Source: Bdellovibrionales bacterium
Lineage (GTDB): Bacteria > Bdellovibrionota > UBA1018 > CAIMNF01
Assembly: GCA_947372355.1 (NCBI GenBank)
Contig: CANBTI010000007.1
Coordinates: 1,010 to 65,009 of the forward strand
Direction: 5' to 3'
DNA: 64,000 nt
Position numbers and translations under genes: made by a program. Shown here piece after piece: positions 5,099-56,873 of the stretch; position 1 is the first letter of the stretch; each line of letters begins with the position of its first letter. The notes beneath the pieces were generated by a model. That model saw nothing but the letters and a program-made list of their open reading frames with translations, was not told where the DNA came from and made no database searches.

Positions 5099-5584
5099 TT
5101 AACGAGCGGTGATTACAAAAGTACCACGGCGATTCTTAGCATGAGCTGCATCTGAATCTGAAGTATCCAATAATTTCTCTTTACCAAAACTAATAATACT
5201 CAATCGATCCCCAGAAACACCTTGATCGATCATAAATTTTTTCACTGAATTTGCTCTTTTTTCGCCAAGTGCGAGATTATACTGAATTCCACCACGAGAG
5301 TCGCAATGTCCTTCGATTTGAATTTTAAGTGATGGTTTATCTTTTAAAATTTGAGCATTCGCTTTGAGTTGAGCTTTATTTGCATCATCAAGTGTATAAG
5401 AATCGTAACCAAAGTGAATGGTTTGTAGTCCCATTGCTTTGCCACTATCAGAATCACCCATGGTGTTTTCATCAGCGTTTGCTGCAGTTGGGATCACTCC
5501 GTCATCGGTAGTTTGTACTTTTGGTTTAGAACAAGCAGATAGAGAAATCAAAGCTGCGAGGGTTAAAGTTAGAATTTTTTTCAT
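5099..5584 (-). CDS. pal: Peptidoglycan-associated lipoprotein (OmpA-like domain)
   Basis: Lipobox LSAC from ATG 5584; IHFGYDS, IEGHCDSRG, YNLALGEKRA, ISFGKEK, NRR. Confidence 0.9.
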   Translation of the reverse strand: MKKILTLTLAALISLSACSKPKVQTTDDGVIPTAANADENTMGDSDSGKAMGLQTIHFGYDSYTLDDANKAQLKANAQILKDKPSLKIQIEGHCDSRGGIQYNLALGEKRANSVKKFMIDQGVSGDRLSIISFGKEKLLDTSDSDAAHAKNRRGTFVITAR

Positions 5585-5604
5585 GTGTGTTCTCCTTAGG
5601 GTAT

Positions 5605-6774
5605 TTAAGAACACTTTACCCATTCCTGCAAGAGATCATTCCCAAATTCGCATAGCGTTGTACGCTCCCACTCTTCCCGATTGGCCTCAAAAAACCCAGT
5701 AACTCTATAGGGCGAGGACTGGGATAGAACTCCAAAATCCTTATCCCCCGTAAAACGATGGACTATATCAATTCTATTCACCCGAAAGAGCTCACTTAAG
5801 GTTCTAGCCCCCCCTTCGCAAAAAATACTTTGAATCTCAGTACCGAAATCTGTTTTCTCAACTGCTGATATGAGTTCTTCAATAGTTTTTTGTTTATAAA
5901 TGTAAGTTGATTGTGGAATTGAAGTTTTCGGGATTTGATCTTTGGGATCATGGATTAAAACAATCGGATTTCTCCGATGAGGTTCGGCGCAATCTCGAAC
6001 CGTTAGCTTTGGTTGATCTTTAATCCAAGTTCCAGCACCCACTAAAATTGCATCATATTTCTGCCTAAGCCAATGAGTGTAAGCCCGCGAAGAAGTATTG
6101 GTGATCCATTTTGAGTTTCCCTCAAAATCCGCTAGTAACCCATCTTGATTCTCAGCCCACTTCGCAACCCATATTGGAGAATGGTGGGTTTGAAAATTTA
6201 AAAATGGATAATGCCAAGCCTTTACTTCATTTTTCAATACACCAATGATCACTTCTTTTTTCGCTTTTTTTAAAAGATCTATACCTTTACCAGCAACTAG
6301 CCGATTTGGATCTTCGCATCCAATCAATACTTTTTCTATCGCGGGGTGAAGAAGTAATTCCGCACAAGGTGGCTGCTTGCCGATGTGTGAGCAAGGCTCA
6401 AGGGTAACGTAAACATGAAGATTAGAAAGATCATCAAGAGAGTAAGATTTTTGTAAAGATTCGAACGCCATTCTTTCTGCATGGAAGCCGCCGTATTTTT
6501 GCGTGAATCCACGAGCCAACACTTGGTTGTCCTTCACAATCACACAACCGACAGAAGGATTGGGTGCGGCCCATCCAATTCCATTCATCGCTTCTAATAG
6601 GGCAAGCGACATCCACCTTTCTTCCAAAGTGGTTGCTGAATCTGGGATTAGAAAATCATTTTCAGAATGACCAGGTAATGTGCGAGCTGCGATCCCCCCC
6701 ATTCCGAATCCTTTTTTTAGCATGGCATAATAGTCGCAATCTTTTGTGCTTCGAACAACCAAAAACAAACTCAT
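5605..6774 (-). CDS. ribD: Riboflavin biosynthesis deaminase/reductase
   Basis: PNPSVGCVIV, HAE, VTLEPCSHIGKQPPC, then KWITN, HWLRQKYDAILVGAGT, CEGG. True start uncertain and probably downstream of 6774. Confidence 0.9.
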   Translation of the reverse strand: MSLFLVVRSTKDCDYYAMLKKGFGMGGIAARTLPGHSENDFLIPDSATTLEERWMSLALLEAMNGIGWAAPNPSVGCVIVKDNQVLARGFTQKYGGFHAERMAFESLQKSYSLDDLSNLHVYVTLEPCSHIGKQPPCAELLLHPAIEKVLIGCEDPNRLVAGKGIDLLKKAKKEVIIGVLKNEVKAWHYPFLNFQTHHSPIWVAKWAENQDGLLADFEGNSKWITNTSSRAYTHWLRQKYDAILVGAGTWIKDQPKLTVRDCAEPHRRNPIVLIHDPKDQIPKTSIPQSTYIYKQKTIEELISAVEKTDFGTEIQSIFCEGGARTLSELFRVNRIDIVHRFTGDKDFGVLSQSSPYRVTGFFEANREEWERTTLCEFGNDLLQEWVKCS

Positions 6775-16470: not shown

Positions 16471-17616
16471 TTACTTTTTGCTAGGACGCTTTCTCAACAC
16501 TCGATCAAACACTTGAATTAATTTTTGTGTTCGAGTGTTTCGATCATAATGTTCTCTTGCAAAATGAACCGCTCTTTTTCCCATTTGCTTGAGTTCTTCT
16601 GGATCTTCTAAAATCGAACGCAATTTTCTTTGCAAATCAAACGAATCACCTGAGCGCATTAAAAGTCCACCTCGAGAGTTTCCAATCCATTCTCCAGAGT
16701 CGGGACCATTTGCACAAATAATCGGTGTACCCATAGCAAGTGATTCTATGGCCTGTAAGCCAAACATCGCTTTGCTCGAAGGCATTACATATACATCCAA
16801 TGTACCTAAAACTTTAGGAACAGATTCCTGAAACGGCACTAAAATAATCTGATCTTGAAGATGAAATGTTCGAATTAAATCAATTAACTCTTCACTACCT
16901 TCATGATCGAAACCAACAATGACAAATTTCGTTCTTTTGGCTAACTCTTCGTTTCTTAAGAACGATGCTGCTGCCTTAATAAAAGCACTTTGAGCCTTTA
17001 CATATTCAGATGAAGCTATCATGCCCACCAAATAGCATTTTAGATCAATACCCCACTGATCTCTTAAAAAACTGAAATCAAAATGCTGGGGATTAAAAAT
17101 ATTAAAATCCAATCCTGGATGAACCACTCGAATTTTATGAACAAGAGAGGGTCGCATTTGCTGAATGCGTTTTTTTAGTGCAACTGAAGGAACAATGATT
17201 GCATCAATTCGGTAATAGAAAAATGATTGGATGAAATGCCAAATTGTTTTTCTTACTCGCGGACCTTCGCTGACCACTACAGAGACATTTCGATTACCAA
17301 GTAACCAAGGTAAAACGCTACCTAAATAATTTGAACCGAAAACATGAATAATATTTACACCGCGAAGGATTTCTTCATTCAAGAGCTCTTTGATGGTCCG
17401 ATCAAAATTTTCATTCGGCTTTTTATCTAAAGCAATAAATCGATTTTTACCAAACTGTTCAACTCTCATTTGAATCTGTGTGTTTTTCAAGCAAACAATT
17501 TTCCAATTCACTTCCTGAGAATTTAATTCAAAAATATCTTCTAAGGCTAATTGCTCATCTTCCCCGAATTCATCGCTGATATAAATGAATAAGATATTGG
17601 GAATGACTTTAGACAT
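16471..17616 (-). CDS. Glycosyltransferase family 4 (GT-B)
   Basis: DAIIVPS, VVHPGLD, LDVYVMPS…FGLQAIESLAMGTPII. Confidence 0.85.
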   Translation of the reverse strand: MSKVIPNILFIYISDEFGEDEQLALEDIFELNSQEVNWKIVCLKNTQIQMRVEQFGKNRFIALDKKPNENFDRTIKELLNEEILRGVNIIHVFGSNYLGSVLPWLLGNRNVSVVVSEGPRVRKTIWHFIQSFFYYRIDAIIVPSVALKKRIQQMRPSLVHKIRVVHPGLDFNIFNPQHFDFSFLRDQWGIDLKCYLVGMIASSEYVKAQSAFIKAAASFLRNEELAKRTKFVIVGFDHEGSEELIDLIRTFHLQDQIILVPFQESVPKVLGTLDVYVMPSSKAMFGLQAIESLAMGTPIICANGPDSGEWIGNSRGGLLMRSGDSFDLQRKLRSILEDPEELKQMGKRAVHFAREHYDRNTRTQKLIQVFDRVLRKRPSKK

Positions 17617-18637
17617 TCAATTCTCCATTTACTTCAGTCATCACTCTTGATGGTAAAATACCTTCATGGCACTGATTCATTCTTTGATCTTGAAACTGAC
17701 AAACATTTTTTTCGCATGGCCAACAATCAACACTAGAATTGGTAATTACCTTAACTGAACCGGGTCCTACGGGTTTGGTTCTTTTTGGATCTGCGGCACC
17801 ACAAACGATGAAAACCTTAGCGCCACAAAGTGAGGCGACGTGAGCTAAACCAGATTCATTACAAATGACGAATTGTGAATTTTGAAAAAGTTTCCAGAGA
17901 GAAGAAACACTGCCCTTACCCGTATAATCTAAAATCGGAATGTTTTTTCGAATAAACTCTTCAGCTATCGATTTTTCTGCTGTTCCGCCAACAATTACAG
18001 ATTTATATCCGTATTTAATTTCAATATTTTTAATCAAATCAGAAAAGTTCTGCGCACTCCATCTTCTTGAATCAGCAGTCGCACCAGGTGCGATGACCAC
18101 ATATCTTTCACGCGGAATTTCTTGGGGTATCACTTCTGGCCACTGCTTAAAAGGATCAAATTTTGTAAAATATTCCTTGGCAGAATCAAATTCTGAACCC
18201 CCAGAACGAACTAGATTAAAATAGGTATCGGCCCGATGAATCATGGGATCAGGATTCCACTTCACTTTTTCAGTAAGAAAATATCCTCTTAAATCAGTTT
18301 GATATCCTCGGATTGTTTTCACCTTTGCTAAATAGAACAAAAAAGCTGAACCAAACGAATTAGGAAGTAAATATCCTAAATCCCAAGGTCCCTTATCTCT
18401 TAACTCAGCTGCAATTCTTCGAATGCTTTGATAAGAGTTCCAAAGTGATTTTTTTTTAAATTTAGGCAAAATAAAAACTTCATCTACATATCCACGAAAC
18501 TGAATGTCTTTTACCCATTCAGTACAAACAACTCCGATCCAAGCTTGAGGATGATCTTTTCTGAGTTGACTATAAAAAGCATAAGCCATCACTTGATCAC
18601 CAATCCAATTTGGTGCTCTAACCAAAATTCTTTTCAT
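17609..18637 (-). CDS. waaF: LPS heptosyltransferase II (GT9)
   Basis: ILVRAPNWIGDQVMA, LLPNSFGSA, IAPGATADSRRW, CNESGLAHVA, DCWPC. Confidence 0.85.
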   Translation of the reverse strand: MKRILVRAPNWIGDQVMAYAFYSQLRKDHPQAWIGVVCTEWVKDIQFRGYVDEVFILPKFKKKSLWNSYQSIRRIAAELRDKGPWDLGYLLPNSFGSAFLFYLAKVKTIRGYQTDLRGYFLTEKVKWNPDPMIHRADTYFNLVRSGGSEFDSAKEYFTKFDPFKQWPEVIPQEIPRERYVVIAPGATADSRRWSAQNFSDLIKNIEIKYGYKSVIVGGTAEKSIAEEFIRKNIPILDYTGKGSVSSLWKLFQNSQFVICNESGLAHVASLCGAKVFIVCGAADPKRTKPVGPGSVKVITNSSVDCWPCEKNVCQFQDQRMNQCHEGILPSRVMTEVNGELNV

Positions 18638-19617
18638 AGAATGCGATCTAGGGCGATAGCAAAGGATCCCACTTTAACTTTTGCTTCAATCCTTAATAAA
18701 TATCGATGTTCATCATTTGAAATCCAAACGGTATTATCTTTGTTTTTTAACTCACCATTTTGAAAGTTTTCAACTCGATAAACGTTTGATTCAAAATCTT
18801 TACTGCCGATAGATATTTTTTCTTTTCGGTCAAACATCACTACCGATTCCCATTGCTTACCATCTAAAATAATAGGAATTCTAATCGATTCTCCCTTGTT
18901 TTGAGGAAGTTGCACCACTCTGATGTAGTATAAAAACGAAAGCGGATCTTGTGACCACAACTTAATGTCATTCTCTTCTTTCTTTTCTGAGAATCCTTTT
19001 TCGGTATGATCGATCCTATTCCAATAAAAGCTTTTTTTCTTTTCGTAATCGTATAGTTCAATTAACTTTCTTGATTGTTTTGACTCATCAAGATTCATAG
19101 TAAAACGATGAGAGTAAAGCCCATCATAATCAAAAAAACTTTCAATTAAATCATCCACTCGATAAACTAATTCGAAAAGTTTAACCGTTTTGGCATGGCC
19201 AGATAAATGGTATACTTTTCGATCATTCACTACTTTTTCAGGATAAACTTCCAAGTTAAAAGTAGCTGCAGTTACACCCACATATCTAATATCATAAAAA
19301 AGTCTCTCACCTGCCGCAAATGGCATTGGATCAATTCTTCTGCTCGGCGGAATCACTGGGGTTGGCTCTGGCACTATCACGCCCTTTTTAGATTTAATTT
19401 TTATTTTTGGTTTTACTATTTTTGCGATTAAATCTGGATTCGGTTTCGGAAGTTCACCGACGTCTTTAACTTCAAACTTTTCAGCTACCTCTTTTGGAAT
19501 TTCTTTTTCGATGTTTAATTCATCAAATTTTCTTAATCCGTTATTAGTTGAACAAGAGGTAATGAGGGCAACTAAACAAAATGGCGCTATAAGACTTCGT
19601 AAGTTAACATGATTCAT
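18634..19617 (-). CDS. DUF3108-like lipoprotein
   Basis: Lipobox ITSC; GERLFYDIRYVGVTA, QDPLSFLY, TVWISNDEHRYLLRIEAKVKVGS. Confidence 0.7.
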   Translation of the reverse strand: MNHVNLRSLIAPFCLVALITSCSTNNGLRKFDELNIEKEIPKEVAEKFEVKDVGELPKPNPDLIAKIVKPKIKIKSKKGVIVPEPTPVIPPSRRIDPMPFAAGERLFYDIRYVGVTAATFNLEVYPEKVVNDRKVYHLSGHAKTVKLFELVYRVDDLIESFFDYDGLYSHRFTMNLDESKQSRKLIELYDYEKKKSFYWNRIDHTEKGFSEKKEENDIKLWSQDPLSFLYYIRVVQLPQNKGESIRIPIILDGKQWESVVMFDRKEKISIGSKDFESNVYRVENFQNGELKNKDNTVWISNDEHRYLLRIEAKVKVGSFAIALDRIL

Positions 19618-21712
19618 CTTTAATCAGTTTAAACTTAAAAATGTAATCGATCCAATCTCGATTTCGAATTGAACGACTCAAGACATAAATATCACTTAAA
19701 TGCGACGGTATTTTGACTCTATCCTTTTCCGTTATTGCCAAGATGCATCCATTTTCTTTGGCTTCGATCATCAATTTTTTGACTTCATCACTTTTATACT
19801 CTGAGTGATCTTGCTTAATGATTGCTCTTTCAATCTTTAGACCTCTCTCTTGATAAAAATTGATTAACTCTTGGGGATCGGCGATCGCACACAGCAACCA
19901 AACAGATTTTTGCGTGGGATTGTTCCAATTCCAATCGATTTTAAAAAAATTTTCTTTTTCTTCAGTAAATACTTTCCTAAATTTTGAGCCCTTAGTTCCA
20001 ATCACTACATCAGCAAAGGTGACTTCTGAATCAAAATCTCGATAGGGAACTTCATTTCGCTTTCTATCCGTTACGGCAATTAAGTTTAAAGCACACTTGA
20101 AAGAAAGGTTTTGAAAACCATCATCAAAAATGATCAGGTCTGGTTTCTGAAGTTCTGCTTTTTTTATTGCAAGAACTCGGTCTGCCCCAACAGAAAGTAT
20201 TACTTCTGGAACTGCGGCTAAAATTTCTTGAGGCTCATCACCCAGTGGGTTTTCTTTACTGCTTCCATAACCACGGCTCACCACTGCTACTTTTTTTCCC
20301 CTGGAAACTGCCTCTTTGGCCAACGCTATGACTATTGGAGTTTTTCCGGCTCCACCTGCTTGTAAATTTCCAACCAAGATAGATGGGGTTTTCACTTTAA
20401 AAACAGGGAGTACTCCAATCACAACCAACCTTCGTCTTAGCCAGTTAATGGATGACCAAACAAAGGAAACAATTGAAATGAATGCTTTAGATTGTTTTTT
20501 TATCCGTTTTGAAGATTGAGGATGATTTATTTGCCACTGCAATATTTCTTTAGCGCTCTCTTCAGCTGAATTAGAATTTTTATTTTGTAAATAAAACAAT
20601 TCACGCACTTCATTGCATTTATCAAGCAATTGAGCTCGATTACTTAAATTTGAATAGTTTTGAAATAAAGCATCAGAAAGATTTTCCGCGGTGGCTTCTG
20701 GACCTAAAAGCTCTTTAAATAAAGCATCTTTTCTGTTTTTATTTCCTAATAAAATATTGGGTAATCCTACTGCACCAACATAGCCACCAATACCCTGAAT
20801 CAGCCAACGAAAAATTTGTTCGCTTAGCCAATTCATCTTATAAAAAATTACTGGAATACACTTTAAGACTGTGGCCTCAAGAGTAGATGTTCCAGATTTG
20901 ATTAATCCAATTTGTGTTTCTGCAAGGCTTTGAGATGAAGAGTTTGGATAAAATACATATTCCACCATTGTTGAGGAAATGAGTGTGTTTTTTATTTTCT
21001 CACCTGATACTCCAGATGGAATAGGGACTTGAGCGGTTACTTTTTTTCCAATGCGATTTGAAAATAGCTCAAGTGTTTTGGGAATAATGGGAAGATGGTA
21101 TTTTAATTCGGCATCCCGACTACCAGGCATAACCGTGATTGTTTCAAGCGGCTTTTTGTTACTTAATATTTCAGAATTTAATTCAGTTAGAGTTTCTAGT
21201 AATGGGTTTCCTTTATAAATCACTGGTATTCCAAGTGACTCATAAAATCTTTTTTCAAATGGGAAAACCACCCAAACACCGTGATAAAGTTTGCGTATCT
21301 TTTCAACCCGACCAGAACGCCAAACCCAAACCTTTGGAGGGATGCCACAAATTCTTAATGATTTTGGTGCTATTCCTTCCTTAACTACAATATCTATTAA
21401 TCGAAGATGAAAATCCGGATAATCAAAGGTAATGATTAAATCGGGATTAAAATTCCGAATCTCAACGGCTGTTCGTTTTATTAATTTTTTAAAAAATGAA
21501 ATTTTATTGATCACTTCAACAAAACCCATCGTGCGTAAATTTTCCGATGATTCAATAGATCTAAAACCTGGCAATGCACAAACGCGTGGTCCACCGATCC
21601 CCATCCATTGGACCGAATCTCCATTTTCTGAAACTAATTTTTGAATTGATTTAAGAATTTTTTCTGCGTGAATATCCGAGGAAATTTCAGCAGCAGAAAC
21701 AAAAATTTTCAT
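19604..21712 (-). CDS. lpxB-lpxK: Fused lipid-A-disaccharide synthase (LpxB) and tetraacyldisaccharide 4'-kinase (LpxK)
   Basis: One ORF. LpxB motifs: AAEISSD, MGFVEV, DYPDF, PPKVWVWR, FPFE, GNPL, MPGSR, KSGTSTLE, GLPNIL. LpxK motifs: VGNLQAGGAGKTP, SRGYG, GDEP, DDGFQ, DH, ITEKD. ATG 21712 forms an ATGA overlap with the lpxA stop. Confidence 0.92.
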   Translation of the reverse strand: MKIFVSAAEISSDIHAEKILKSIQKLVSENGDSVQWMGIGGPRVCALPGFRSIESSENLRTMGFVEVINKISFFKKLIKRTAVEIRNFNPDLIITFDYPDFHLRLIDIVVKEGIAPKSLRICGIPPKVWVWRSGRVEKIRKLYHGVWVVFPFEKRFYESLGIPVIYKGNPLLETLTELNSEILSNKKPLETITVMPGSRDAELKYHLPIIPKTLELFSNRIGKKVTAQVPIPSGVSGEKIKNTLISSTMVEYVFYPNSSSQSLAETQIGLIKSGTSTLEATVLKCIPVIFYKMNWLSEQIFRWLIQGIGGYVGAVGLPNILLGNKNRKDALFKELLGPEATAENLSDALFQNYSNLSNRAQLLDKCNEVRELFYLQNKNSNSAEESAKEILQWQINHPQSSKRIKKQSKAFISIVSFVWSSINWLRRRLVVIGVLPVFKVKTPSILVGNLQAGGAGKTPIVIALAKEAVSRGKKVAVVSRGYGSSKENPLGDEPQEILAAVPEVILSVGADRVLAIKKAELQKPDLIIFDDGFQNLSFKCALNLIAVTDRKRNEVPYRDFDSEVTFADVVIGTKGSKFRKVFTEEKENFFKIDWNWNNPTQKSVWLLCAIADPQELINFYQERGLKIERAIIKQDHSEYKSDEVKKLMIEAKENGCILAITEKDRVKIPSHLSDIYVLSRSIRNRDWIDYIFKFKLIKDESC

Positions 21713-22494
21713 CGCAAACAACCATTTTTACTAGTTTTGATAAACTCGAATAATACTTTTACTTCTTTAAAAGCTCCGAAACTTTCTTCAATTTTTTGAA
21801 GACATTCATCTTTTTGCAAATCGCTTTGCTTCCATATTTTCAATGCTTCATTGATTGCCAAAATTGCTTCGTTTTTAAAGCCTTTTCTCCGTAATCCAAC
21901 TAAGTTCGCACCTTTTACTTCACATGGTCTTGAGCCTACAAGAACTGCGTAAGGTGGTGCGTCTTTATCAATCATTGAGCCAGCTCCCACATAGACATGT
22001 TCACCGACATGAACAAATTGAGTTACACCTGTGAGTCCGCCAATAATGGCATAATCATCTAAAATCACATGCCCCGCGATTGCAACTGAGTTAGCAAGAA
22101 CACAATGATTTCCCACTAAAGAATCATGGCCAAGATGGGTGTAGGCCATCAAAAGATTATGACTTCCCAAAACCGTTTTTCCTCCACCCTGAACAGTACC
22201 AAGATTCAGAGTGACGCTTTCGCGAATCGTATTGTCATCACCGATGAACAATTCCGTTTTTTCTCCATTAAATTTTAAATCTTGAGGCACTCCACCAATT
22301 ACGGAAAATGGGAAAAAAACATTTCCTGTTCCAATGGTTGTTTTTCCATCCACCACTACATGACTAATCAGTTTTGTACCTGAGCCGATTTTTACTTCAG
22401 GTCCAATTATACAATAGGGCCCCACCTCAACATCATCGGCTAATTCAGCTTCTGAACTTACTATCGCTGTTGGATGAACCTTAGGGGATGCCAT
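21709..22494 (-). CDS. lpxA: UDP-N-acetylglucosamine O-acyltransferase
   Basis: VHPTAIV hexapeptide repeats, PQDLKF, IRESVT, MAYTHLGHDS, GANLVGLRRKG. Confidence 0.96.
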   Translation of the reverse strand: MASPKVHPTAIVSSEAELADDVEVGPYCIIGPEVKIGSGTKLISHVVVDGKTTIGTGNVFFPFSVIGGVPQDLKFNGEKTELFIGDDNTIRESVTLNLGTVQGGGKTVLGSHNLLMAYTHLGHDSLVGNHCVLANSVAIAGHVILDDYAIIGGLTGVTQFVHVGEHVYVGAGSMIDKDAPPYAVLVGSRPCEVKGANLVGLRRKGFKNEAILAINEALKIWKQSDLQKDECLQKIEESFGAFKEVKVLFEFIKTSKNGCLR

Positions 22495-22497
22495 TGA

Positions 22498-23019
22498 TTA
22501 TTCCTTTTTTTCTGAACTTTTCTCTGTCACTGGCATTAAATTCGCCATAATTTTTGCTTCCGCTACCAATTTTTCGCCAACATATCCTTTACATAAAAAA
22601 CTCCAAAGATAGGTTCGACAACCGGTAACTTCGGTTTCAATTCTTAAAACATCTCCCGGAGTAACGGGAATGCGAAAGCGCGCCTGATCTACACCAACCA
22701 ACACGCACTGGAATCTGCCACGAACATTATTTTCTAACATCATGTATGGATACATGGAAAAACTTGCAACTTGAGCCATGGTTTCCAATATTAAAACACC
22801 TGGCATGATTGCAAATTCAGGAAAGTGGCCCATAAAATGAGGTTCATTCATTGATACATTTTTAATTCCAACCACTTTTATTCCTAATTTGTTTTTAGGT
22901 TGATCATCGATCATCGTGTTCGGACCACTTACACTGAGAATACGATCCACTAGTAAAAATGGGGGTCGGTGCGGTAGAAACTTCTGAATTTCCTTTTGCT
23001 CTAGATAATACTCGCTCAT
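22498..23019 (-). CDS. fabZ: 3-hydroxyacyl-ACP dehydratase
   Basis: LPHRPPFLLVDR, KNVSMNEPHF.GHFP, MPGVLILETMAQ, PVTPGD. Confidence 0.96.
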   Translation of the reverse strand: MSEYYLEQKEIQKFLPHRPPFLLVDRILSVSGPNTMIDDQPKNKLGIKVVGIKNVSMNEPHFMGHFPEFAIMPGVLILETMAQVASFSMYPYMMLENNVRGRFQCVLVGVDQARFRIPVTPGDVLRIETEVTGCRTYLWSFLCKGYVGEKLVAEAKIMANLMPVTEKSSEKKE

Positions 23020-24113
23020 ATTTTTTTCCTAACCTTTGTACGCTCGCGTAGAAGTTTATTTTGGATAGCGAGAATTTTATAATACTCCGAAATCGGACGT
23101 GCAGGCATACCCGCTAACTCTGATTCCGGTGGACAATCTTTAGCAACTCCAGAAAAAGCACCAAGAATACTATAATCACCAACATGAACTTGATTTCCAG
23201 TTCCAGCCTGAGCAGCAACCGTTACAAATTTGCCTAGCGATGAACTTCCCGCCATTCCCGCAGCACCACAAAGAATTGAACCCTCACCGATTTCACAGTT
23301 GTGGCCAATCTGAACTTGATTATCAATTTTAACTTTTGAATGGATTAGCGTTGAGCCCATTGTTCCGCGATCAATGGTGGTATTTGATCCAACCTCAACA
23401 TCATCACCAATGATTACATTTCCAATGTGATAGATTTTTAAATGATCAATCGGTTTCTTAGTATCGGCATCTCTCACTGGAATATAACCAAAACCATCCC
23501 CGCCAATCACCGCTCCAGAATGAATTCTACATCTTTCACCAATCATTGTTTTTTCGTAAAAAGTAACTCTTGGAAACAGAACACTTCCTTTACCAATTTT
23601 ACTTTTTTTACCAATAAAACATTGAGGGTAAAGAACAACTGCATCTTGAATTTCACAACCATCTTCGATCACGCAATAAGCACCAACGCTTACTCCAGCA
23701 CCAATTTTTACATCGGAGCCTATGATTGCTGTTGGATGAATTTGGTTGGGCTCTTTAGATATCAACTGGTGATCATGAGAAGAAGAGCGAGTAGAAAACA
23801 GAGCGGTTAGAATAGCTAAGGCTCGATTGGGTTGTTCACAGGAAATAAATACACTTTTTTTCCACGCAGGAATACCAGCAGCTTGTATCGCTTGAACATC
23901 ACCATTTGCAATGATCACCAAACCTGCCTTAGTCATGTAAAGTTCGGACTCGTAATGCTTTGAAAAGAAAAAAGAGATATCAGTTGGCCCAGCATCTTTG
24001 AGCGTAGAAAGATTTTGGAGGCTCAGTGAAGTCAAAAGCGCAGATGCAAACTCTGGATTTGCTATCTGCGCCCCGATCAACTTTTGAATTTCTAAAATTG
24101 AAAACTGATTCAT
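23016..24113 (-). CDS. lpxD: UDP-3-O-acylglucosamine N-acyltransferase
   Basis: ISFF, IHPTAII, IHSGAVIGGDGFGY, VEVGSNTTIDRG, KIDNQVQIGHN. Confidence 0.95.
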   Translation of the reverse strand: MNQFSILEIQKLIGAQIANPEFASALLTSLSLQNLSTLKDAGPTDISFFFSKHYESELYMTKAGLVIIANGDVQAIQAAGIPAWKKSVFISCEQPNRALAILTALFSTRSSSHDHQLISKEPNQIHPTAIIGSDVKIGAGVSVGAYCVIEDGCEIQDAVVLYPQCFIGKKSKIGKGSVLFPRVTFYEKTMIGERCRIHSGAVIGGDGFGYIPVRDADTKKPIDHLKIYHIGNVIIGDDVEVGSNTTIDRGTMGSTLIHSKVKIDNQVQIGHNCEIGEGSILCGAAGMAGSSSLGKFVTVAAQAGTGNQVHVGDYSILGAFSGVAKDCPPESELAGMPARPISEYYKILAIQNKLLRERTKVRKKI

Positions 24114-24121
24114 TAATTGAA

Positions 24122-24631
24122 CTAGTTAATAGCTTTCATTACTTCTTCAGTAATATCGTCTTTATCTAAAGAGTAGATGACTACGTTTTCGTTCTTCTCT
24201 AAAAGCAGGGAGAATCCTTTTTTCTTAGCAATCTCTGAAGCTTTTTCACGAATTTTACGAATGATTGGCTCACTCATTTCTTGTTCTTTTTTCTGAATTT
24301 CTGCTTGTGATTTTTGGAGCAACTCTTGGTACTTCATGAATTTTTCTTGAAGTTTGCCTTGTTGTTCTTTTTTAGCACTTTCACTCAAAGCTGCTTGTTT
24401 CTTTTGAAACTCTTCTTGAAGTTTTTTAAGATTTGCTTCTTCCGCCTGAAGTTCTTTTTTCTTTTTGTTGAAAGCTTGCTCTAATTCGCCTTTAGCTTTT
24501 TTTCCAGTTTCTGATGATTGAATTGCTTTTTGCATATCAATCGTTCCAATTTTAACCTCATCTGCACGGGAAACGCCGGCATTGAGTACTAAAGCGCTAA
24601 CAATAAAAGCTATCGTGGTTACTGGGTTCAT
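24122..24631 (-). CDS. skp: Periplasmic chaperone Skp/OmpH
   Basis: Signal peptide; KIGTIDMQ; long coiled coil; DITEEVM; lies between bamA and lpxD. Confidence 0.92.
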   Translation of the reverse strand: MNPVTTIAFIVSALVLNAGVSRADEVKIGTIDMQKAIQSSETGKKAKGELEQAFNKKKKELQAEEANLKKLQEEFQKKQAALSESAKKEQQGKLQEKFMKYQELLQKSQAEIQKKEQEMSEPIIRKIREKASEIAKKKGFSLLLEKNENVVIYSLDKDDITEEVMKAIN

Positions 24632-24663
24632 AAGGTAATTCCTTTCGTTGGGTTAAGAGTATC

Positions 24664-27000
24664 CTAAAATGGTTGTCCGATAAAGAAAATGAAAACTGGT
24701 GATTCTTCAGCTCTGTTGGTGGTACTCACTACGCCTGGGTGGATAGGAAATCCCCACTCAAAACGAAGTGGTCCAAGAGGAGAAAACCAACGAAGACCAA
24801 ATCCCCAGTTCTGTTTTAACGTAAAATCTTGGTCACTAGAGAAGCCTGGCACAGAGAAAAATGTGTTACCAATATCGTAAAACATCACCCATTTTAAGCC
24901 CGCTTCTTTAATGAGGGGGTGTTCCACCTCAAACAAAGAATAAAACTCTGAAGCTCCGCCAACCTTCTCCACAATGCCTGGACCACGCATGATGACCGGC
25001 GCGAGCGAGAACGCTTCAAATCCGCGCATATTCCATGCACCGCCTAAATAAAATTTTTCTGCAGGAGGTATTCCTCGACCACCCGTATTAATCATCGCTC
25101 CCATTTCGGTACTGTTCTTAAATACAAAACTTCCAATAAAATTATTATAGTAACGATTGTTGAAGGTCACTTTGGAAAAGTTTTTTACTCCGCCCAAACC
25201 TGCGAACTCTAAAGAGAGGTTTTGATAATTTCCATCACTGGTTTCAAAACGATTGTTTCTTTTGTCGCGCACTAAACTTAAAACTACGCTCGAAAGAATT
25301 CCTGTATCTAAACTATCGTCAGCAACCACTTGCGGTGCACCTGAGATTGGATCTGCAGCGCGTGCATAACTAGTCATCACTCGAAGATGTTCGAATTTAT
25401 AGGTAAAGAAACCTTGGATATCATCTGAAAGTGGGTAGCCTAACTTAAGATTAAATCCTGCACGACGAACCAAGTATCGATCTGGAATGGGCGAATTGCT
25501 CATGAATAAGCTAAATCCTGCACTCCAATCCGTATCAAAAGCATACGGATCCATAAACTCAAGACTAAAGCTGCGAACCACATCATCTTTACCCCATTGA
25601 GTTTCAAAACTTAAGTTTTGACCACGACCAAGAAGGTTGATCTCTTGAACTTTACCCTGAAAGAAAAATCCCTGAACCGAACTAAATCCCGCACCTAGAG
25701 TAATACTTCCAGTGGAGCGCTCTTTCACAACCACTTCAATATCAAGCTTATCATCTGAACCTTTTACAGGAACTTGATTGAATTGAACTTCTCCAGGAGC
25801 AAAGTATCCAAGGCGCTCAACGCGTTCTTTGGAAATACGAAGCTTAGATCCACTAAACAATTCGCCCTCATGAATACGCAATTCACGACGAACCACTTTA
25901 TCGTAGGTTTTAGTGTTGGCCACAATGCGGATTTCATTAAAGTGAACTAGATTTCCTTTTTCAAAACCATATTCAACATTTACCGTTTTAGCTTCGTCGT
26001 TGAAATCCATTTTTGGAATCACATTGACAAATGCATAGCCCAAATCTTGATATTTCTCGGTTAGGCGCTGTATATCAGCATTTCTTGCACTAACACTGAA
26101 TGTTTGATCCTCAAGAAGTTTAATTTCTTTCTTGAGCTCTTCTTTAGGGAAAAGTAAATCGCCACTAAAATCATAAGAGCCAATTTTGTAGGAATTTCCT
26201 TCATCAACAAAAAGTGAAATGAAAACGTATTTTTTATCATCACTCACCGTGATAATTGGGTTTTCATATCTGAACTTTAAATAACCATTTTCAAGGTAGT
26301 AATAAGTTAAACGCTGAAGATCGATCTTGAATGATGCTTCCTTGAAAGTTCCTGAACTAGAAAGAAAGTTCATTGAACTTCCTTCTTTGGTTTCTGCAAA
26401 TATTGTTTTTAACTTTTCATCTGTGAATGCATGGTTATTTAAGAAAACGATTTGTTTAATTTCAACTTTATCAAAATCAGAAATCTTATAAACTAACTTT
26501 ACTTCGCCTTCTTTTACCGGACGAACTTCGTAAGCTGCACGGGCAAGATAGTAGCCTTTATCTTCATAGTGTTTTTGGAGTAGTTCCACATCACTTTGAG
26601 CTTTATTTACATCAAGAATTGCCCATTTTTTAACCTTGATCACTTCTTCAAGATCACTGGTATTTATTTTTTCATTACCTTCAAAAACAATTTCATCGAT
26701 TACCGGACGCTCTTGAAAAGAAAGCGTAAGAACAATCCCCTGTGCGGCAGATCCTTCTTTTCTGATTTCGATGTTGTCGAAATATCCCATGCCATAAAGC
26801 GCTTCGATGTCTCTTCTGGTATCGGTTTCTAAATATGCTTTTCCTGGTTTAGAAGAAATTTTTTCTAAAACTGCGTCGCGCTCAATACGATGAAGTCCGA
26901 CGGTTTTCACTTCTGTAATTTTTTCTAAGTCGGCACGCGACTCAGCACAAAGGTGTAAAAGCAAAAAACTAGATGCAATGAGTGGTGTCAAAATTTTCAC
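24664..27000 (-). CDS. bamA: Outer membrane protein assembly factor
   Basis: POTRA repeats (ERPVIDEI, TYDKVVRREL), ERSTGS, FYLGG..MRGF, GLRWFSPLGPLRFEWG, terminal GQPF. Confidence 0.97.
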   Translation of the reverse strand: MKILTPLIASSFLLLHLCAESRADLEKITEVKTVGLHRIERDAVLEKISSKPGKAYLETDTRRDIEALYGMGYFDNIEIRKEGSAAQGIVLTLSFQERPVIDEIVFEGNEKINTSDLEEVIKVKKWAILDVNKAQSDVELLQKHYEDKGYYLARAAYEVRPVKEGEVKLVYKISDFDKVEIKQIVFLNNHAFTDEKLKTIFAETKEGSSMNFLSSSGTFKEASFKIDLQRLTYYYLENGYLKFRYENPIITVSDDKKYVFISLFVDEGNSYKIGSYDFSGDLLFPKEELKKEIKLLEDQTFSVSARNADIQRLTEKYQDLGYAFVNVIPKMDFNDEAKTVNVEYGFEKGNLVHFNEIRIVANTKTYDKVVRRELRIHEGELFSGSKLRISKERVERLGYFAPGEVQFNQVPVKGSDDKLDIEVVVKERSTGSITLGAGFSSVQGFFFQGKVQEINLLGRGQNLSFETQWGKDDVVRSFSLEFMDPYAFDTDWSAGFSLFMSNSPIPDRYLVRRAGFNLKLGYPLSDDIQGFFTYKFEHLRVMTSYARAADPISGAPQVVADDSLDTGILSSVVLSLVRDKRNNRFETSDGNYQNLSLEFAGLGGVKNFSKVTFNNRYYNNFIGSFVFKNSTEMGAMINTGGRGIPPAEKFYLGGAWNMRGFEAFSLAPVIMRGPGIVEKVGGASEFYSLFEVEHPLIKEAGLKWVMFYDIGNTFFSVPGFSSDQDFTLKQNWGFGLRWFSPLGPLRFEWGFPIHPGVVSTTNRAEESPVFIFFIGQPF

Positions 27001-30071: not shown

Positions 30072-30123
30072 AGTGCTTTATGTATACAGATTTTTAGTCA
30101 AAATTTCAATAACCAAACAATAC

Positions 30124-30930
30124 ATGAAAGTTTCAGTCGTCATTCCAGTTTATAATCAGTGTCAGCTAACGGAGCGTTGTCTCCAATCCTTGCTGAAGCA
30201 CTCCAAGCTACTTGGTGAGGTGACCGTAATTGATAACGCGTCCCGCGATAACACAGCGTTGATTTTAAACGACTTTAAAGAGCAATTCACTCAAACAGGG
30301 GTTTCATTCCAAGTTATTTCAAACTCGGAAAACGTTGGTTTTGGCAGAGCTTGCAATCAAGGAATCCGTATATTTTTAAAAGGCCAGGCGCAATATTTAG
30401 TGATTTTAAATAACGATACCTGGCTAATGCCCGATTGGGACCAAGCTTTGGTTGATACATTGAACTCCAAACATTTAGATTGTGTGGGTCCTTATTTTTA
30501 TGAAAAACCGATCTCTGAAAACATTTCTCTGATCGCAAAAAAGTTTATCACTAGAAATGCGGGCAAGACTCGGAAACATTTTGTTCCAATTTTGATGTGC
30601 TTCACTCGTTCCGCAGCCGTACGCCTCGCTTCTGATTGTGCCGGCTCCAACGGCGCCATGTTTGATGAGCGGTACTTTGTTACTTATGAAGATACCGATC
30701 TACTCACCAGAATGAAAAAAATGAATATGAAATACGCGCAGTCGGGATCTTGTTTCATTTGGCACCATTCAAAAGGAACGCGCGATCAACTTCCTTCCGG
30801 TTACGAACAAGAAGGACTTAGATTATTTATAGAAAAATGGGGATTTGATCCACGCATTCAAGAACACACCTTGATGGCGAAATGGAAGCGAAAGTATTAC
30901 AAAACGATTGAGAAAATCGGACTATTTTAA
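30124..30930 (+). CDS. Glycosyltransferase family 2
   Basis: VSVVIPVYN, VIDNASRD, NVGFGRACNQG, LNND, YEDTDL, IWHHS. ATG 30124 preferred over the track start 30073. Confidence 0.9.
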   Translation: MKVSVVIPVYNQCQLTERCLQSLLKHSKLLGEVTVIDNASRDNTALILNDFKEQFTQTGVSFQVISNSENVGFGRACNQGIRIFLKGQAQYLVILNNDTWLMPDWDQALVDTLNSKHLDCVGPYFYEKPISENISLIAKKFITRNAGKTRKHFVPILMCFTRSAAVRLASDCAGSNGAMFDERYFVTYEDTDLLTRMKKMNMKYAQSGSCFIWHHSKGTRDQLPSGYEQEGLRLFIEKWGFDPRIQEHTLMAKWKRKYYKTIEKIGLF

Positions 30931-30945
30931 TTCTACAGGTTAAGC

Positions 30946-32403
30946 ATGAAAATATTTGAGCGGATCATCTTGTTTTTAGGATCAGTCACTGTCATCGCCT
31001 TATCCGTGATTCATTCCATGCACGGAACCGATTCACATCATTGGGGCTTCATCATGGGAACAGCCCTGGATTTAATCCAAGGAAAAAAACTGTTTCACGA
31101 GATCTATATTCAATATGGATTGGGGCAGCCATTTTTATTTCAATTTTTAAATTATTTATTTCCCATTAACTTTTCCACTGTCGGAATGGTTACAGGGGTT
31201 GTTTATGCGATTAACCTTTGTATGCTTTTTGCAGTGGTAAAAAAGATTGGCGGATCTTCACTTGCATTGATGATCTACGCAATGGCCCTACTCATTCACA
31301 CTTACTCAATATTTCCTTGGCCAAATTACTACTCAGGCCTGTTTCTAACTTGTGCAATCTATATGCTCATCCGTGATGGTCGCTTCATGGTGACATCATT
31401 TCTAGCGGGTGCTTTTTTGTTTGTGGCCTTTTTGTTTCGAAGCACTTATCTGGTGAGTATTTTATCTGCTTCTTTCGTTTATGGGATAGCGGTGATTTAC
31501 AATCCTAATCTTAAAAGTAAAAAGATACTGGCTTCACTTACGTTTTTTTTCGTAGGAGTAATATTTTTTTCTTTGTTATTGTCATACCAAGGAAATCTGG
31601 GAATTTGGTTTGAACAAAGTATAGCCTCTGGAACTTCAAAGTATGCATTGGGAGTTCATGACGTTATTAAAACTCTTCGCAAGGCATTTTGGCCTGTGGG
31701 CATTTACCTTCCCGATCAAATTGTGAACACCAGCTTTGTGGCACTATTTTATGTTTCCATCATCTTTTTATTTAAAAGTGTTATTAGAAAAATCACCCCT
31801 GTTAAAACAGAATATGTATTCATTGCACTATTGGGTTTGGCAGGACTCTCCCAGGTAATTCTGAGTTATGAGTTTTTCAGACTACAAAATGATTGCATTT
31901 CATTGTTGATCATTTTTTCACTCGTAATAAAAAATCACCTTTCAAAAATAAACTTCAAAATCGCCACGGGAGTTTATTTCATACTTTTACTGCTCAAATT
32001 TCCAAATGCATCCGCCCTATTTCCTTTATATGATGGCGGATGGGACTCTTATCAATCCACTTCGATTCACATTTTTAAATTTCATCGGCTTCAGCCTGAA
32101 GTAAAAACCTACTATGAAAAACTAGCTGATGTTTTATGCAAAGATGATCAAAAAATAATCAACCTCACGCCTGATTCGACGATCCCCTATTTGTGTGAAT
32201 TAAATAAAAATGATCTGCCAATTCCATTTTACTCTCAAAAACTGAGTAACATTCAAAATGTAAATATTAAAAATAAATGGATTGTTGTTGATCAGTCATC
32301 AGATCTAAGCACTTCCGAACTTAAACTAAATGCCACGATCACTCGTCCTGCTCAAATTCGGTTTTTTGGTACTTCTGAAGTAAAAATATTCAGTGTCAAT
32401 TAG
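30946..32403 (+). CDS. Polytopic membrane protein, probable GT-C-fold glycosyltransferase
   Basis: One TM helix, then a periplasmic loop DSHHWG…LIQGKKLFHEIYIQYG, about 10 more TM segments and a soluble C-terminal domain. Confidence 0.5.
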   Translation: MKIFERIILFLGSVTVIALSVIHSMHGTDSHHWGFIMGTALDLIQGKKLFHEIYIQYGLGQPFLFQFLNYLFPINFSTVGMVTGVVYAINLCMLFAVVKKIGGSSLALMIYAMALLIHTYSIFPWPNYYSGLFLTCAIYMLIRDGRFMVTSFLAGAFLFVAFLFRSTYLVSILSASFVYGIAVIYNPNLKSKKILASLTFFFVGVIFFSLLLSYQGNLGIWFEQSIASGTSKYALGVHDVIKTLRKAFWPVGIYLPDQIVNTSFVALFYVSIIFLFKSVIRKITPVKTEYVFIALLGLAGLSQVILSYEFFRLQNDCISLLIIFSLVIKNHLSKINFKIATGVYFILLLLKFPNASALFPLYDGGWDSYQSTSIHIFKFHRLQPEVKTYYEKLADVLCKDDQKIINLTPDSTIPYLCELNKNDLPIPFYSQKLSNIQNVNIKNKWIVVDQSSDLSTSELKLNATITRPAQIRFFGTSEVKIFSVN

Positions 32404-47038: not shown

Positions 47039-47128
47039 TGGCGGGGAGAGAGGGATTTGAACCCCCGAACAGATTGCTCCGTTGCCGGTTTTCAAAACCG
47101 GTGCATTCAACCGCTCTGCCATCTCCCC
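47039..47128 (-). tRNA. tRNA-Ser(UGA)
   Basis: Acceptor stem GGGGAGA/TCTCCCC, discriminator G, encoded CCA; anticodon arm CCGGT-TTTGAAA-ACCGG; long variable arm; GTTCAAATC T-loop; 90 nt. Confidence 0.96.
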
Positions 47129-48144: not shown

Positions 48145-48312
48145 ATGTTTGGATTAAGCGGTGGACATTTACTTATATTAGCTGTGGTTGTTTTACTTTT
48201 TGGTAGTCGCCGATTACCGGATCTTGGCTCTGCCTTAGGAAAGGGCGTTCACGCCTTCAAAAAAGGCCTCGAAGGCAAGAATAGCGATGACGACCAAAAC
48301 AAACTTTCCTAG
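48145..48312 (+). CDS. tatA: Twin-arginine translocase TatA/E subunit
   Basis: MFGLSGGHLLILAVVVLLFGSRRLPDLGSALGKGVHAFKKG. Confidence 0.92.
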   Translation: MFGLSGGHLLILAVVVLLFGSRRLPDLGSALGKGVHAFKKGLEGKNSDDDQNKLS

Positions 48313-56832: not shown

Positions 56833-56873
56833 TCTTGTATAAGAATATGCTGAATTGTGATAAATCAAAAGCA

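What the first reader, a model, noticed from the sequence alone, without database searches (positions are those of the whole stretch)
19604..21712. In-frame LpxB-LpxK fusion joining two consecutive lipid A steps
Seen: one uninterrupted ORF carries a complete LpxB (about 20530-21712), a short basic linker (QINHPQSSKRIKKQSKA), and an LpxK with an intact P-loop (GNLQAGGAGKTP), GDEP, DDGFQ, DH and TEKD. No Met near the junction could serve as a separate lpxK start, which argues against a simple lost stop codon. Established: in the Raetz pathway LpxB makes the disaccharide 1-phosphate that LpxK then phosphorylates, and the two are normally separate genes; lpxK usually sits with msbA/kdsB. I recall other Raetz fusions (LpxC-FabZ) but no characterised LpxB-LpxK. 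The kinase half is compact and diverged (DDGFQN for DDGFQH; VPYRD for GPLRE). Inference: possible substrate channelling at the membrane, or a kinase with altered activity. This matters because B. bacteriovorus lipid A is reported to carry mannose instead of phosphate.
Basis: partly seen in the sequence, partly recalled or inferred. Interest (0 to 1): 0.78.

Follow-up and report, generated by a model that had tools for sequence, protein, structure and literature searches.

The report
Fused lipid A synthase-kinase gene
One gene in an uncultured freshwater Bdellovibrionota bacterium encodes two consecutive lipid A enzymes (LpxB and LpxK) as a single protein; the fusion is real, old and shared by a whole lineage, looks like an ordinary merger of two overlapping neighbour genes, and has not been studied experimentally.

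Summary
Window 19604-21712 (- strand) is one 702-codon ORF. It holds a full LpxB domain (aa 3-387), a 22-aa basic coil, the LpxK N-terminal membrane helix (aa 410-431) and a full LpxK kinase.

It is not an assembly artefact. The identical protein sits on a second public MAG contig. An 88%-identical orthologue from another metagenome has no junction indel, with dN/dS about 0.10 in both halves and 0.13 at the junction. More than 90 homologues keep the same frame.

The window protein lies in a 70-sequence, all-fused clade (NJ bootstrap 100/100). Its relatives carry lpxB and lpxK as adjacent genes whose stop and start overlap (ATGA type). So the fusion most likely arose by a frame merge at that overlap, possibly more than once.

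Every catalytic residue of both enzymes is invariant across 43 fused proteins. The structure model is confident (pLDDT 89) and matches solved LpxB and LpxK.

The link to B. bacteriovorus is unsupported: GC is about 36% and all close relatives are uncultured MAGs. No paper describing this fusion was found, and source annotations name only one half.

Verdict: a real bifunctional enzyme and a new variant of a known kind, of modest interest.

The parts
19604..21712 (-). lpxBK: a single 702-codon ORF (ATG at 21712, TAA at 19604-19606) encoding the fused lipid-A-disaccharide synthase / tetraacyldisaccharide 4'-kinase
   Evidence: ORF list; Pfam and NCBIfam; identical protein on a second assembly; dN/dS 0.106 against the L082 orthologue
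20552..21706 (-). LpxB (GT-B, GT19) domain, aa 3-387. Active-site equivalents of E. coli E15, S17, D98, P198-R201, T277 and E281 are E9, S11, D97, P196-R199, T275 and E279.
   Evidence: Alignment to 5w8n; residue list from PMC5785501; invariance across 43 fused proteins; Foldseek 5w8s E 4.5e-17
20486..20551 (-). Junction coil, aa 388-409 (KEILQWQINHPQSSKRIKKQSK). It is basic, has no Met, and corresponds to the former LpxB C-terminal tail plus the first residues of LpxK.
   Evidence: AF2 secondary structure (coil 396-409) and lower pLDDT there. The A387-S416 distance is 25-41 aa in all 43 fused proteins and is KR-rich. dN/dS 0.129.
20420..20485 (-). LpxK N-terminal hydrophobic/amphipathic membrane helix, aa 410-431 (AFISIVSFVWSSINWLRRRLVV), now internal to the protein
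   Evidence: AF2 helix 410-431; conserved SFxWSxxNxxRR motif; hydrophobic moment 0.31-0.44; the Aquifex helix is required for activity (PMC6286764)
19607..20419 (-). LpxK kinase body, aa 432-702. It contains the P-loop G448-P459 (K457, T458), R480, D492/E493, R512, D530/D531, N535, H636 and K663.
   Evidence: Pfam and NCBIfam; Foldseek 4ehy TM 0.74, rmsd 3.2; residue roles from PMC6286764; invariance
21709..22494 (-). lpxA. Its TGA stop overlaps the lpxBK ATG (ATGA at 21709-21712).
22498..24113 (-). fabZ (22498-23019) and lpxD (23016-24113), upstream members of the same tightly packed operon
24122..27000 (-). skp/ompH (24122-24631) and bamA (24664-27000)
16471..19617 (-). Downstream operon members. 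The DUF3108 lipoprotein gene (18634-19617) overlaps the lpxBK 3' end by 14 nt. It is followed by a GT9 heptosyltransferase-II-like gene (17609-18637) and a GT4 glycosyltransferase gene (16471-17616).
   Evidence: synteny conserved in fused and split relatives

Best explanation
lpxBK encodes one bifunctional, monotopic inner-membrane enzyme that carries out two consecutive Raetz-pathway steps at the cytoplasmic face. The N-terminal GT-B half (LpxB) condenses UDP-2,3-diacylglucosamine with lipid X to give the disaccharide 1-phosphate. The C-terminal P-loop half (LpxK) then uses ATP to phosphorylate the 4' position, giving lipid IVA. The two halves are joined by about 22 basic residues followed by LpxK's own membrane-inserting helix. 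That arrangement should hold both active sites on the same membrane surface in 1:1 stoichiometry, so the lipid intermediate only has to move a few nanometres within the leaflet.

The gene most likely arose when the overlapping stop and start (ATGA type) of an ancestral, translationally coupled lpxB-lpxK pair were merged into one frame. It has since been kept by purifying selection in a deep Bdellovibrionota clade.

Shown here: the single ORF, both domains, the conserved catalytic residues, the folds, the clade-wide conservation, and the split-overlapping state in relatives. Inferred: both enzymatic activities, translation as one polypeptide, proximity channelling, and the direction of the evolutionary event.
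For: Catalytic residues. The LpxB residues listed in PMC5785501 and the LpxK residues K51, T52, R72, D99, E100, R119, D138, D139, H261 and K280 listed in PMC6286764 map to positions that are identical or near-identical in 43 fused proteins of 28-88% identity.

Structure. The AF2 model has pLDDT 89.3 and pTM 0.70, with a coil at 396-409 and a helix at 410-431. The top Foldseek hits are LpxB 5w8s (E 4.5e-17) and LpxK 4ehy (TM 0.74).

Selection. dN/dS is 0.104, 0.129 and 0.102 for LpxB, junction and LpxK at dS about 0.6, with no junction indel, against an orthologue from another metagenome.

Independent copies. The identical protein is on a second assembly.

Distribution. About 95 of the 120 best homologues carry both Pfam domains. 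The 70-member all-fused clade has bootstrap 100/100 and is recovered with the LpxB columns and the LpxK columns separately. About 40 clusters at 50% identity have junction-spanning matches.

Origin. Twenty-six Bdellovibrionota species-representative loci have lpxB and lpxK adjacent in different frames, with the lpxK start overlapping the lpxB stop. The same bamA-skp-lpxD-fabZ-lpxA-lpxB-lpxK-...-DUF3108-GT9-GT4 synteny holds in the fused and the split forms.
Against: There is no biochemical, proteomic or transcript evidence. Translation as one chain and both activities are inferred.

The LpxB half scores below NCBIfam's equivalog cut-off.

Two lipid-contact positions of Aquifex LpxK differ: His143 is Asn535 and Glu117 is Ala510. 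The window's subclade has also lost a 17-19 aa hairpin next to the lipid-binding Arg.

Only 64 kb of the genome is visible, so a second stand-alone lpxB or lpxK elsewhere cannot be excluded.

The relative orientation of the two halves in the model could not be inspected, because no PAE or coordinates were available.

The tree is NJ only, and the sampling of fused sequences is biased because the search query was itself a fused protein.
Confidence: 0.85

Rival explanations
1. Assembly or sequencing artefact: a 1-nt indel error at an lpxB/lpxK overlap has artificially joined two genes.
For: Relatives really do have overlapping lpxB and lpxK in different frames, so a single-base error could mimic a fusion. 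Independent read support for the window is only low-depth contigs, with a gap at 20443-20482.
Against: The identical protein occurs in a second assembly. An 88% orthologue from another metagenome has the same frame and no indel. Seventy clade members from ENA, JGI, NCBI and Logan sources are all fused. The junction is under purifying selection in this frame.
Confidence: 0.01
2. There is one ORF but two proteins. Internal initiation or proteolytic cleavage in the linker releases a separate LpxK, so the fusion is only genetic.
For: In-frame TTG391, TTG429 and GTG431 exist, and GTG431 has GAAGG 6 nt upstream. The linker is a low-confidence coil.
Against: There is no ATG between residues 293 and 648. 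TTG391 lacks a well-spaced Shine-Dalgarno sequence. Starting at 429 or 431 would remove the N-terminal helix, which is required for LpxK activity in Aquifex. The GAAGG arises from the conserved RRR codons. The frame is conserved over 28-88% identity, which would not be needed if the parts were made separately.
Confidence: 0.07
3. One half is catalytically changed. For example, the kinase may have altered head-group recognition or a regulatory role, with the canonical activity supplied by another gene outside the window.
For: Asn replaces the 1-phosphate-binding His143 in 32 of 43 fused proteins. Glu117 is not kept. The window's subclade has a hairpin deletion next to R480. The LpxB half is below the TIGR00215 cut-off. 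The rest of the genome is unseen.
Against: All residues shown by mutagenesis to matter for catalysis are invariant: K51, T52, D99, E100, D138, D139 and H261 in LpxK, and E15, S17, D98, R201, T277 and E281 in LpxB. dN/dS is equally low in both halves. No second lpxB or lpxK lies in the 64 kb. Asn can still hydrogen-bond a phosphate (inference).
Confidence: 0.07

Closest known systems
E. coli LpxB (lipid-A-disaccharide synthase, GT19; PDB 5W8S/5W8X)
   Same: Same GT-B fold and the same active-site residues: E15, S17, D98, PGSR 198-201, T277 and E281. Same genomic position downstream of lpxD-fabZ-lpxA.
   Different: About 23% identity. It scores below the TIGR00215 equivalog cut-off. Its C-terminus runs on into LpxK instead of ending. 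E. coli LpxB forms a dimer by swapping its C-terminal part (PMC5785501), so a fused kinase might be carried across to the partner subunit; this was not testable here.
Aquifex aeolicus LpxK (tetraacyldisaccharide 4'-kinase; PDB 4EHX/4EHY/4LKV)
   Same: Same two-domain P-loop kinase fold (TM 0.74). Same Walker A, GDEP, DDGFQ, DH and TEKD residues. It also has an N-terminal membrane helix with a basic patch beside it.
   Different: The helix is internal rather than N-terminal. His143 is Asn and Glu117 is Ala. A 17-19 aa hairpin after SRGY is deleted in the window's subclade. The gene is not linked to msbA, kdsB or waaA.
Split, translationally coupled lpxB-lpxK pairs of other Bdellovibrionota (e.g. 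L010, L013, L016, L033)
   Same: Same operon and the same two proteins. Same junction sequences: an LpxB tail of the type ...AAREIL..., and an LpxK head of the type ...SxxWSxxN....
   Different: They are two ORFs in different frames with a 1-8 nt stop/start overlap. In most of them an lpxL-family acyltransferase gene follows lpxK, and this gene is absent from that position in the fused clade.
LpxC-FabZ fusion of Bacteroidota, Chlorobi and Verrucomicrobia
   Same: It is another natural fusion of neighbouring genes of the lipid A cluster (PMC3087551).
   Different: It joins enzymes of two competing pathways, not two consecutive steps acting on one membrane-bound intermediate. It occurs in different phyla.

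Membership tests
LpxB (PF02684 / TIGR00215, GT19) | Profile match above the curated threshold | tested here: inconclusive
   Pfam scores 221 bits against a cut-off of 22.6, which is met. The NCBIfam equivalog scores 168.5 bits against a cut-off of 190.25, which is not met.
LpxB (PF02684 / TIGR00215, GT19) | Active-site residues E15, S17, D98, P198-G199-S200-R201, T277, E281 (E. coli numbering) | tested here: met
   They align to E9, S11, D97, P196-R199, T275 and E279 and are invariant or at least 95% conserved in 43 fused proteins. The residue list is from PMC5785501.
LpxB (PF02684 / TIGR00215, GT19) | GT-B two-Rossmann fold | tested here: met
   AF2 pLDDT is about 90 over aa 1-390. The best PDB matches are 5w8s, 5w8n and 5w8x (E about 5e-17). 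Their high rmsd is expected, because the crystal form is a swapped dimer.
LpxB (PF02684 / TIGR00215, GT19) | Disaccharide synthase activity | not testable with these tools
   Needs an enzyme assay or complementation.
LpxK (PF02606 / TIGR00682) | Profile match above the curated threshold | tested here: met
   Pfam scores 149 bits against 27. TIGR00682 scores 112.4 bits against 91.95.
LpxK (PF02606 / TIGR00682) | Catalytic residues: Walker A K51/T52, D99/E100, Walker B D138/D139, H261, K280 | tested here: met
   They map to K457, T458, D492, E493, D530, D531, H636 and K663. All are invariant in 43 fused proteins, except T458, which is T in 40 and S in 3.
LpxK (PF02606 / TIGR00682) | Lipid head-group contacts R72, E117, R119, H143 | tested here: inconclusive
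   R480 and R512 are invariant. E117 corresponds to A510, a variable column. H143 corresponds to N535 (Asn in 32 of 43, His in 6).
LpxK (PF02606 / TIGR00682) | N-terminal amphipathic membrane helix with an adjacent basic patch | tested here: met
   There is a helix at 410-431 in the model. It carries a hydrophobic, Trp-rich conserved motif. Its hydrophobic moment is 0.31-0.44. It is preceded by KRIKKQSK.
LpxK (PF02606 / TIGR00682) | Fold of solved LpxK | tested here: met
   4ehy: TM 0.74 (normalised by target), rmsd 3.2 Å over 328 columns.
Bifunctional fusion enzyme (one polypeptide, two activities) | Single uninterrupted reading frame conserved among orthologues | tested here: met
Bifunctional fusion enzyme (one polypeptide, two activities) | Produced as one polypeptide with both activities | not testable with these tools
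   No proteomic or biochemical data are available. Internal starts are not excluded.

The most novel reading that the evidence does not exclude
The fusion would be more than a convenience. It would enforce direct hand-over of the disaccharide 1-phosphate between the two active sites. Together with the clade-typical His143-to-Asn change and the subclade's hairpin deletion beside the lipid-binding arginine, the kinase would have co-evolved to accept substrate only from its own synthase half, or to accept a chemically different head group. This lineage's lipid A pathway would then be mechanistically distinct.
Probability: 0.1. Interest if true: 0.55.

Novelty: new variant of a known kind. Interest (0 to 1): 0.35.

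Why it matters
1. It is a natural 'Rosetta stone' showing that LpxB and LpxK work side by side on the membrane. It provides a ready-made construct for testing substrate channelling between two essential steps that are also drug targets.

2. It constrains topology. Both halves need cytosolic nucleotides (UDP-diacylglucosamine and ATP). The hydrophobic helix between them therefore cannot span the membrane once and must lie in or dip into the inner leaflet. This independently supports the monotopic model derived from the Aquifex LpxK crystal structures.

3. It is a clean example of how a translationally coupled gene pair with an ATGA overlap turns into a fusion, possibly several times within one phylum.

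4. It is a practical annotation point. The sources name these roughly 700-aa proteins after one enzyme only, so pathway reconstructions of such MAGs may wrongly report lpxB or lpxK as missing.

None of this overturns what is known about lipid A synthesis.

Tried and rejected
1. Fusions outside Bdellovibrionota. Ignavibacteria and Melioribacter loci gave full-length tblastn coverage, but they turned out to be three genes, lpxB-DUF374-lpxK. No non-Bdellovibrionota locus among the 80 kept was fused.

2. B. bacteriovorus itself. It could not be resolved. It was not among the 80 loci kept. A search seeded with the LpxK of the 'Bdellovibrio sp. ZAP7'-labelled MAG returned only unnamed or MAG-labelled unfused kinases. 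No paper mentions lpxB, lpxK and Bdellovibrio together.

3. Organism names for close homologues. The cluster look-up returned no accessions or taxa.

4. LpxB-only hits of 43-47% identity as possible fissions inside the fused clade. P0070 and P0071 are contig-end fragments of fused proteins. P0081-83 are genuine stand-alone LpxB proteins in a different context (lpxL-lpxA-lpxB-ELM1-like) with no adjacent lpxK.

5. Read-level confirmation. Only low-depth Logan contigs were available. They are consistent with the window but leave 40 nt of the junction uncovered.

6. The GT2 plus polytopic membrane protein pair at 30073-32403 as an ArnC/ArnT-like lipid A glycosylation pair. The GT2 scores only 24 bits against ArnC, and the membrane protein hits no family. 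This was not pursued.

7. The original LpxK structure papers (PMC3420166, PMC4148839) are not held. Residue roles were taken from the review PMC6286764 instead.
Full report
**Observation**

The - strand of window 19604-21721 holds one uninterrupted ORF. The likely start is the ATG at 21712, which gives 702 aa. That ATG overlaps the TGA stop of lpxA as ATGA.

Pfam places LpxB (PF02684) at aa 3-387 (E 2.7e-65) and LpxK (PF02606) at aa 410-671 (E 2.1e-43). NCBIfam's lpxK equivalog is passed at 112 bits against a cut-off of 92. The lpxB equivalog falls short at 168 bits against 190. This may explain why NCBI-sourced names for such proteins read 'tetraacyldisaccharide 4'-kinase' while JGI calls them 'lipid-A-disaccharide synthase'.

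There is no Met between residues 293 and 648.

**Is the junction real?**

- The identical 702-aa protein is encoded on a second public assembly, NCBI MAG contig CANCOA010000033.1, with the same neighbours.
- An 88%-identical orthologue from a different metagenome (L082) aligns without any indel until the last seven residues.
- Against that orthologue, Nei-Gojobori dN/dS is 0.104 for LpxB, 0.129 for the junction plus helix, and 0.102 for LpxK, at dS of about 0.6.
- Low-depth contigs from an unrelated lake metagenome match 20082-20442 and 20483-20709 exactly. They leave 40 nt of the junction uncovered.
- Among the 120 best homologues in 5.8 billion proteins, about 95 carry both Pfam domains and are 680-770 aa long, down to 28% identity.

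An artefact is therefore excluded for practical purposes.

**Anatomy**

I aligned 43 fused proteins of 28-88% identity.

LpxB half. The active-site residues compiled for E. coli LpxB are E15, S17, D98, P198-G199-S200-R201, T277 and E281 (PMC5785501). They correspond to E9, S11, D97, P196-R199, T275 and E279 and are invariant or nearly so.

LpxK half. The residues shown by mutagenesis to matter in Aquifex LpxK are K51, T52, D99, E100, D138, D139 and H261; the lipid-binding residues include R72 and R119, and K280 also lines the nucleotide site (PMC6286764). They correspond to K457, T458, D492, E493, D530, D531, H636, R480, R512 and K663, and all are invariant or nearly so.

Two lipid-contact positions differ:
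- His143, which binds the 1-phosphate, is Asn535. This column is Asn in 32 of 43 sequences and His in 6.
- Glu117 falls in a variable column and is Ala510 here.

The window's own subclade (60% identity or more) also lacks a 17-19 aa hairpin between SRGYG and GDEP.

Structure. The AlphaFold2 model built on this alignment is confident (mean pLDDT 89.3, pTM 0.70). It shows a coil at 396-409 and a long helix at 410-431. The best PDB matches are E. coli LpxB (E about 5e-17) and Aquifex LpxK (TM 0.74, rmsd 3.2 Å).

The helix carries the conserved SFxWSxxNxxRR motif. It is the counterpart of LpxK's N-terminal amphipathic helix, which is required for activity in Aquifex. The 'linker' is therefore the old LpxB tail plus the old LpxK N-terminus. 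The distance from A387 to S416 is 25-41 aa in every fused protein and is rich in Lys and Arg.

**Where the fusion came from**

I scanned one genome per GTDB species and then searched the stop-to-stop ORFs with HMMs. Three states appeared:
- Eight Bdellovibrionota loci have a single fused ORF (L001-L008).
- Twenty-six Bdellovibrionota loci have lpxB and lpxK adjacent but in different frames.
- Other phyla have lpxB alone, or in Ignavibacteria the three genes lpxB-DUF374-lpxK.

In the split loci the lpxK start overlaps the lpxB stop. It is ATGA in L010, L015, L016, L033 and L048, and GTGA, TTGA or a few more bases in others. A one-base frame change at such an overlap would make exactly the junction seen here.

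The surrounding operon, bamA-skp-lpxD-fabZ-lpxA-lpxB-lpxK-...-DUF3108-GT9-GT4, is the same in both forms. The exception is an lpxL-family acyltransferase gene that follows lpxK in most split loci and is missing at that place in the fused clade.

I built a neighbour-joining tree of the concatenated LpxB and LpxK profile columns, with 133 sequences and Ignavibacteria as outgroup.
- The window protein falls in a 70-member clade with bootstrap 100/100 in which every member is fused.
- The same clade is recovered from the LpxB columns (Jaccard 0.97) and from the LpxK columns (1.0) separately.
- The sister assemblage mixes fused and split forms, and parsimony needs at least 8 changes on this tree.
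- That number is soft. That part of the tree is poorly resolved, and sampling is biased because the fused sequences were found with a fused query.
- At least one fused form there is seen in independent assemblies (P0087, P0088, L007).

A junction-centred query (aa 300-520) against 1.84 billion representatives at 50% identity found about 40 clusters with a junction-spanning match in proteins of 690-760 aa. All the newly found ones are nearest to Bdellovibrionota sequences.

Stand-alone LpxB relatives without an adjacent lpxK also exist (P0081).

**Mechanism**

Both catalytic halves look functional and both are under equal purifying selection. The most likely product is a bifunctional enzyme making lipid IVA from lipid X and UDP-diacylglucosamine in two steps.

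LpxB binds the membrane through a hydrophobic patch (PMC5785501). LpxK binds it through its helix and basic patch and only partly extracts its lipid substrate (PMC6286764). Tethering them by about 22 residues should keep both sites on the same leaflet at 1:1 stoichiometry. This is proximity channelling, and it is inferred, not shown.

The fusion also has a topological consequence. Both halves use cytosolic nucleotides, so the hydrophobic helix between them cannot cross the membrane once. This agrees with the monotopic model from the Aquifex structures.

E. coli LpxB dimerises by swapping its C-terminal part. In a fused dimer each kinase might therefore sit beside the partner's synthase. This could not be tested.

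**Rivals**

- Artefact: see above; about 1%.
- Two polypeptides from one ORF. In-frame TTG391, TTG429 and GTG431 exist. TTG391 has no well-placed Shine-Dalgarno sequence, and the other two would delete the essential helix. About 7%.
- An altered or inactive half. The Asn535, Ala510 and hairpin differences are real, but they do not touch catalytic residues, and no second copy lies in the 64 kb. The rest of the genome is unseen. About 7%.

**The B. bacteriovorus argument**

The window has about 36% GC. From my own knowledge, B. bacteriovorus HD100 is near 50%. Its closest relatives are uncultured lake, pond or sediment MAGs labelled Oligoflexia, Bdellovibrionales or Proteobacteria. The best species representative is only 48% identical.

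The single locus labelled Bdellovibrio (L013) is split. I could not establish the state in HD100.

Phosphate-free, mannose-bearing lipid A is reported for Bdellovibrio and Francisella. In Francisella it is produced after the kinase step, by the periplasmic phosphatase LpxF and by FlmF/FlmK-type enzymes (PMC2233673). An intact LpxK is therefore expected regardless of the final lipid A structure.

**Comparison with what is known, and novelty**

Full-text searches found no paper describing an LpxB-LpxK fusion. The survey of lipid A gene clusters mentions only the lpxC/fabZ fusion and the waaA-lpxK cluster (PMC3087551).

The architecture is nevertheless visible in public protein collections, under names that cover one half only.

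I class it as a new variant of a known kind. It joins two well-known enzymes by a common evolutionary route, it is conserved in a deep uncultured lineage, and it is uncharacterised. It is useful for channelling and topology experiments and for annotation, but it would not surprise a specialist. Interest 0.35.

Noticed in passing
window 16471-24113 (- strand): Nearly every gene boundary in the lpxD-fabZ-lpxA-lpxBK-DUF3108-GT9-GT4 run is an overlap: lpxD/fabZ 4 nt, lpxA/lpxBK ATGA, lpxBK/DUF3108 14 nt, DUF3108/GT9 4 nt, GT9/GT4 8 nt. The whole block looks translationally coupled.
   Followed up: partly
window 18634-19617 (-); L001-L035 downstream of lpxK: A DUF3108 lipoprotein-like gene (signal LVALITSCS) sits right after the lipid A genes in nearly all fused and split Bdellovibrionota loci with sequence downstream, followed by GT9 and GT4 genes. 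Its function is unknown, but this conserved linkage suggests a role in LPS or the outer membrane.
   Followed up: partly
L013 6138-7076 and the equivalent roughly 1-kb gaps in L009-L031: In the split clade an lpxL-family late acyltransferase gene (PF03279, E 1.4e-40) follows and overlaps lpxK. It is absent from that position in the fused clade and from the whole 64-kb window.
   Followed up: partly
window aa 481-491 of lpxBK (about nt 20240-20272): The window's subclade (60% identity or more) has lost a 17-19 aa beta-hairpin between SRGYG and GDEP. Other fused proteins and Aquifex LpxK keep it. The deletion lies next to the lipid-binding arginine.
   Followed up: partly
window 30073-32403 (+): A GT2 glycosyltransferase gene (285 aa) is immediately followed by a gene for a 485-aa polytopic membrane protein that matches no Pfam or NCBIfam family. 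The layout recalls ArnC/ArnT or FlmF/FlmK pairs that glycosylate lipid A, but the GT2 is only weakly ArnC-like (24 bits).
   Followed up: partly
L039, L047 and other Ignavibacteria/Melioribacter loci, about 5120-5800: Here lpxB and lpxK are separated by a DUF374 gene of about 220 aa in one operon. This is a different way of linking the same two steps.
   Followed up: partly
L083/L084 (P0081 context): Stand-alone LpxB relatives sit in an lpxL-lpxA-lpxB arrangement followed by an ELM1-like gene (PF06258), with no lpxK nearby. All three linkage states (fused, adjacent, unlinked) therefore occur among close relatives.
   Followed up: partly
Foldseek result for the whole model (ranks 9, 11, 12): Subunits of about 500 aa of the Tetrahymena thermophila respiratory complex I (8b6f_A0, 8gym_T1, 7tgh_T1) match the model at E 1e-11 to 5e-14 over about 450-505 columns, ahead of ordinary GT-B enzymes. 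Which half they resemble was not examined.
   Followed up: no
window 48287-50032 (+): This 581-aa protein has only partial matches (two stretches; best aa 214-300) to the biopterin-dependent aromatic amino acid hydroxylase family. That is unusually long for that family.
   Followed up: no
window 47042-47128 (-) and 55909-56898 (-): There is one tRNA gene (Rfam, 59.7 bits) and a tyrosine recombinase of the phage-integrase family (XerC/D-like) about 9 kb away. No other sign of a mobile element was looked for.
   Followed up: no
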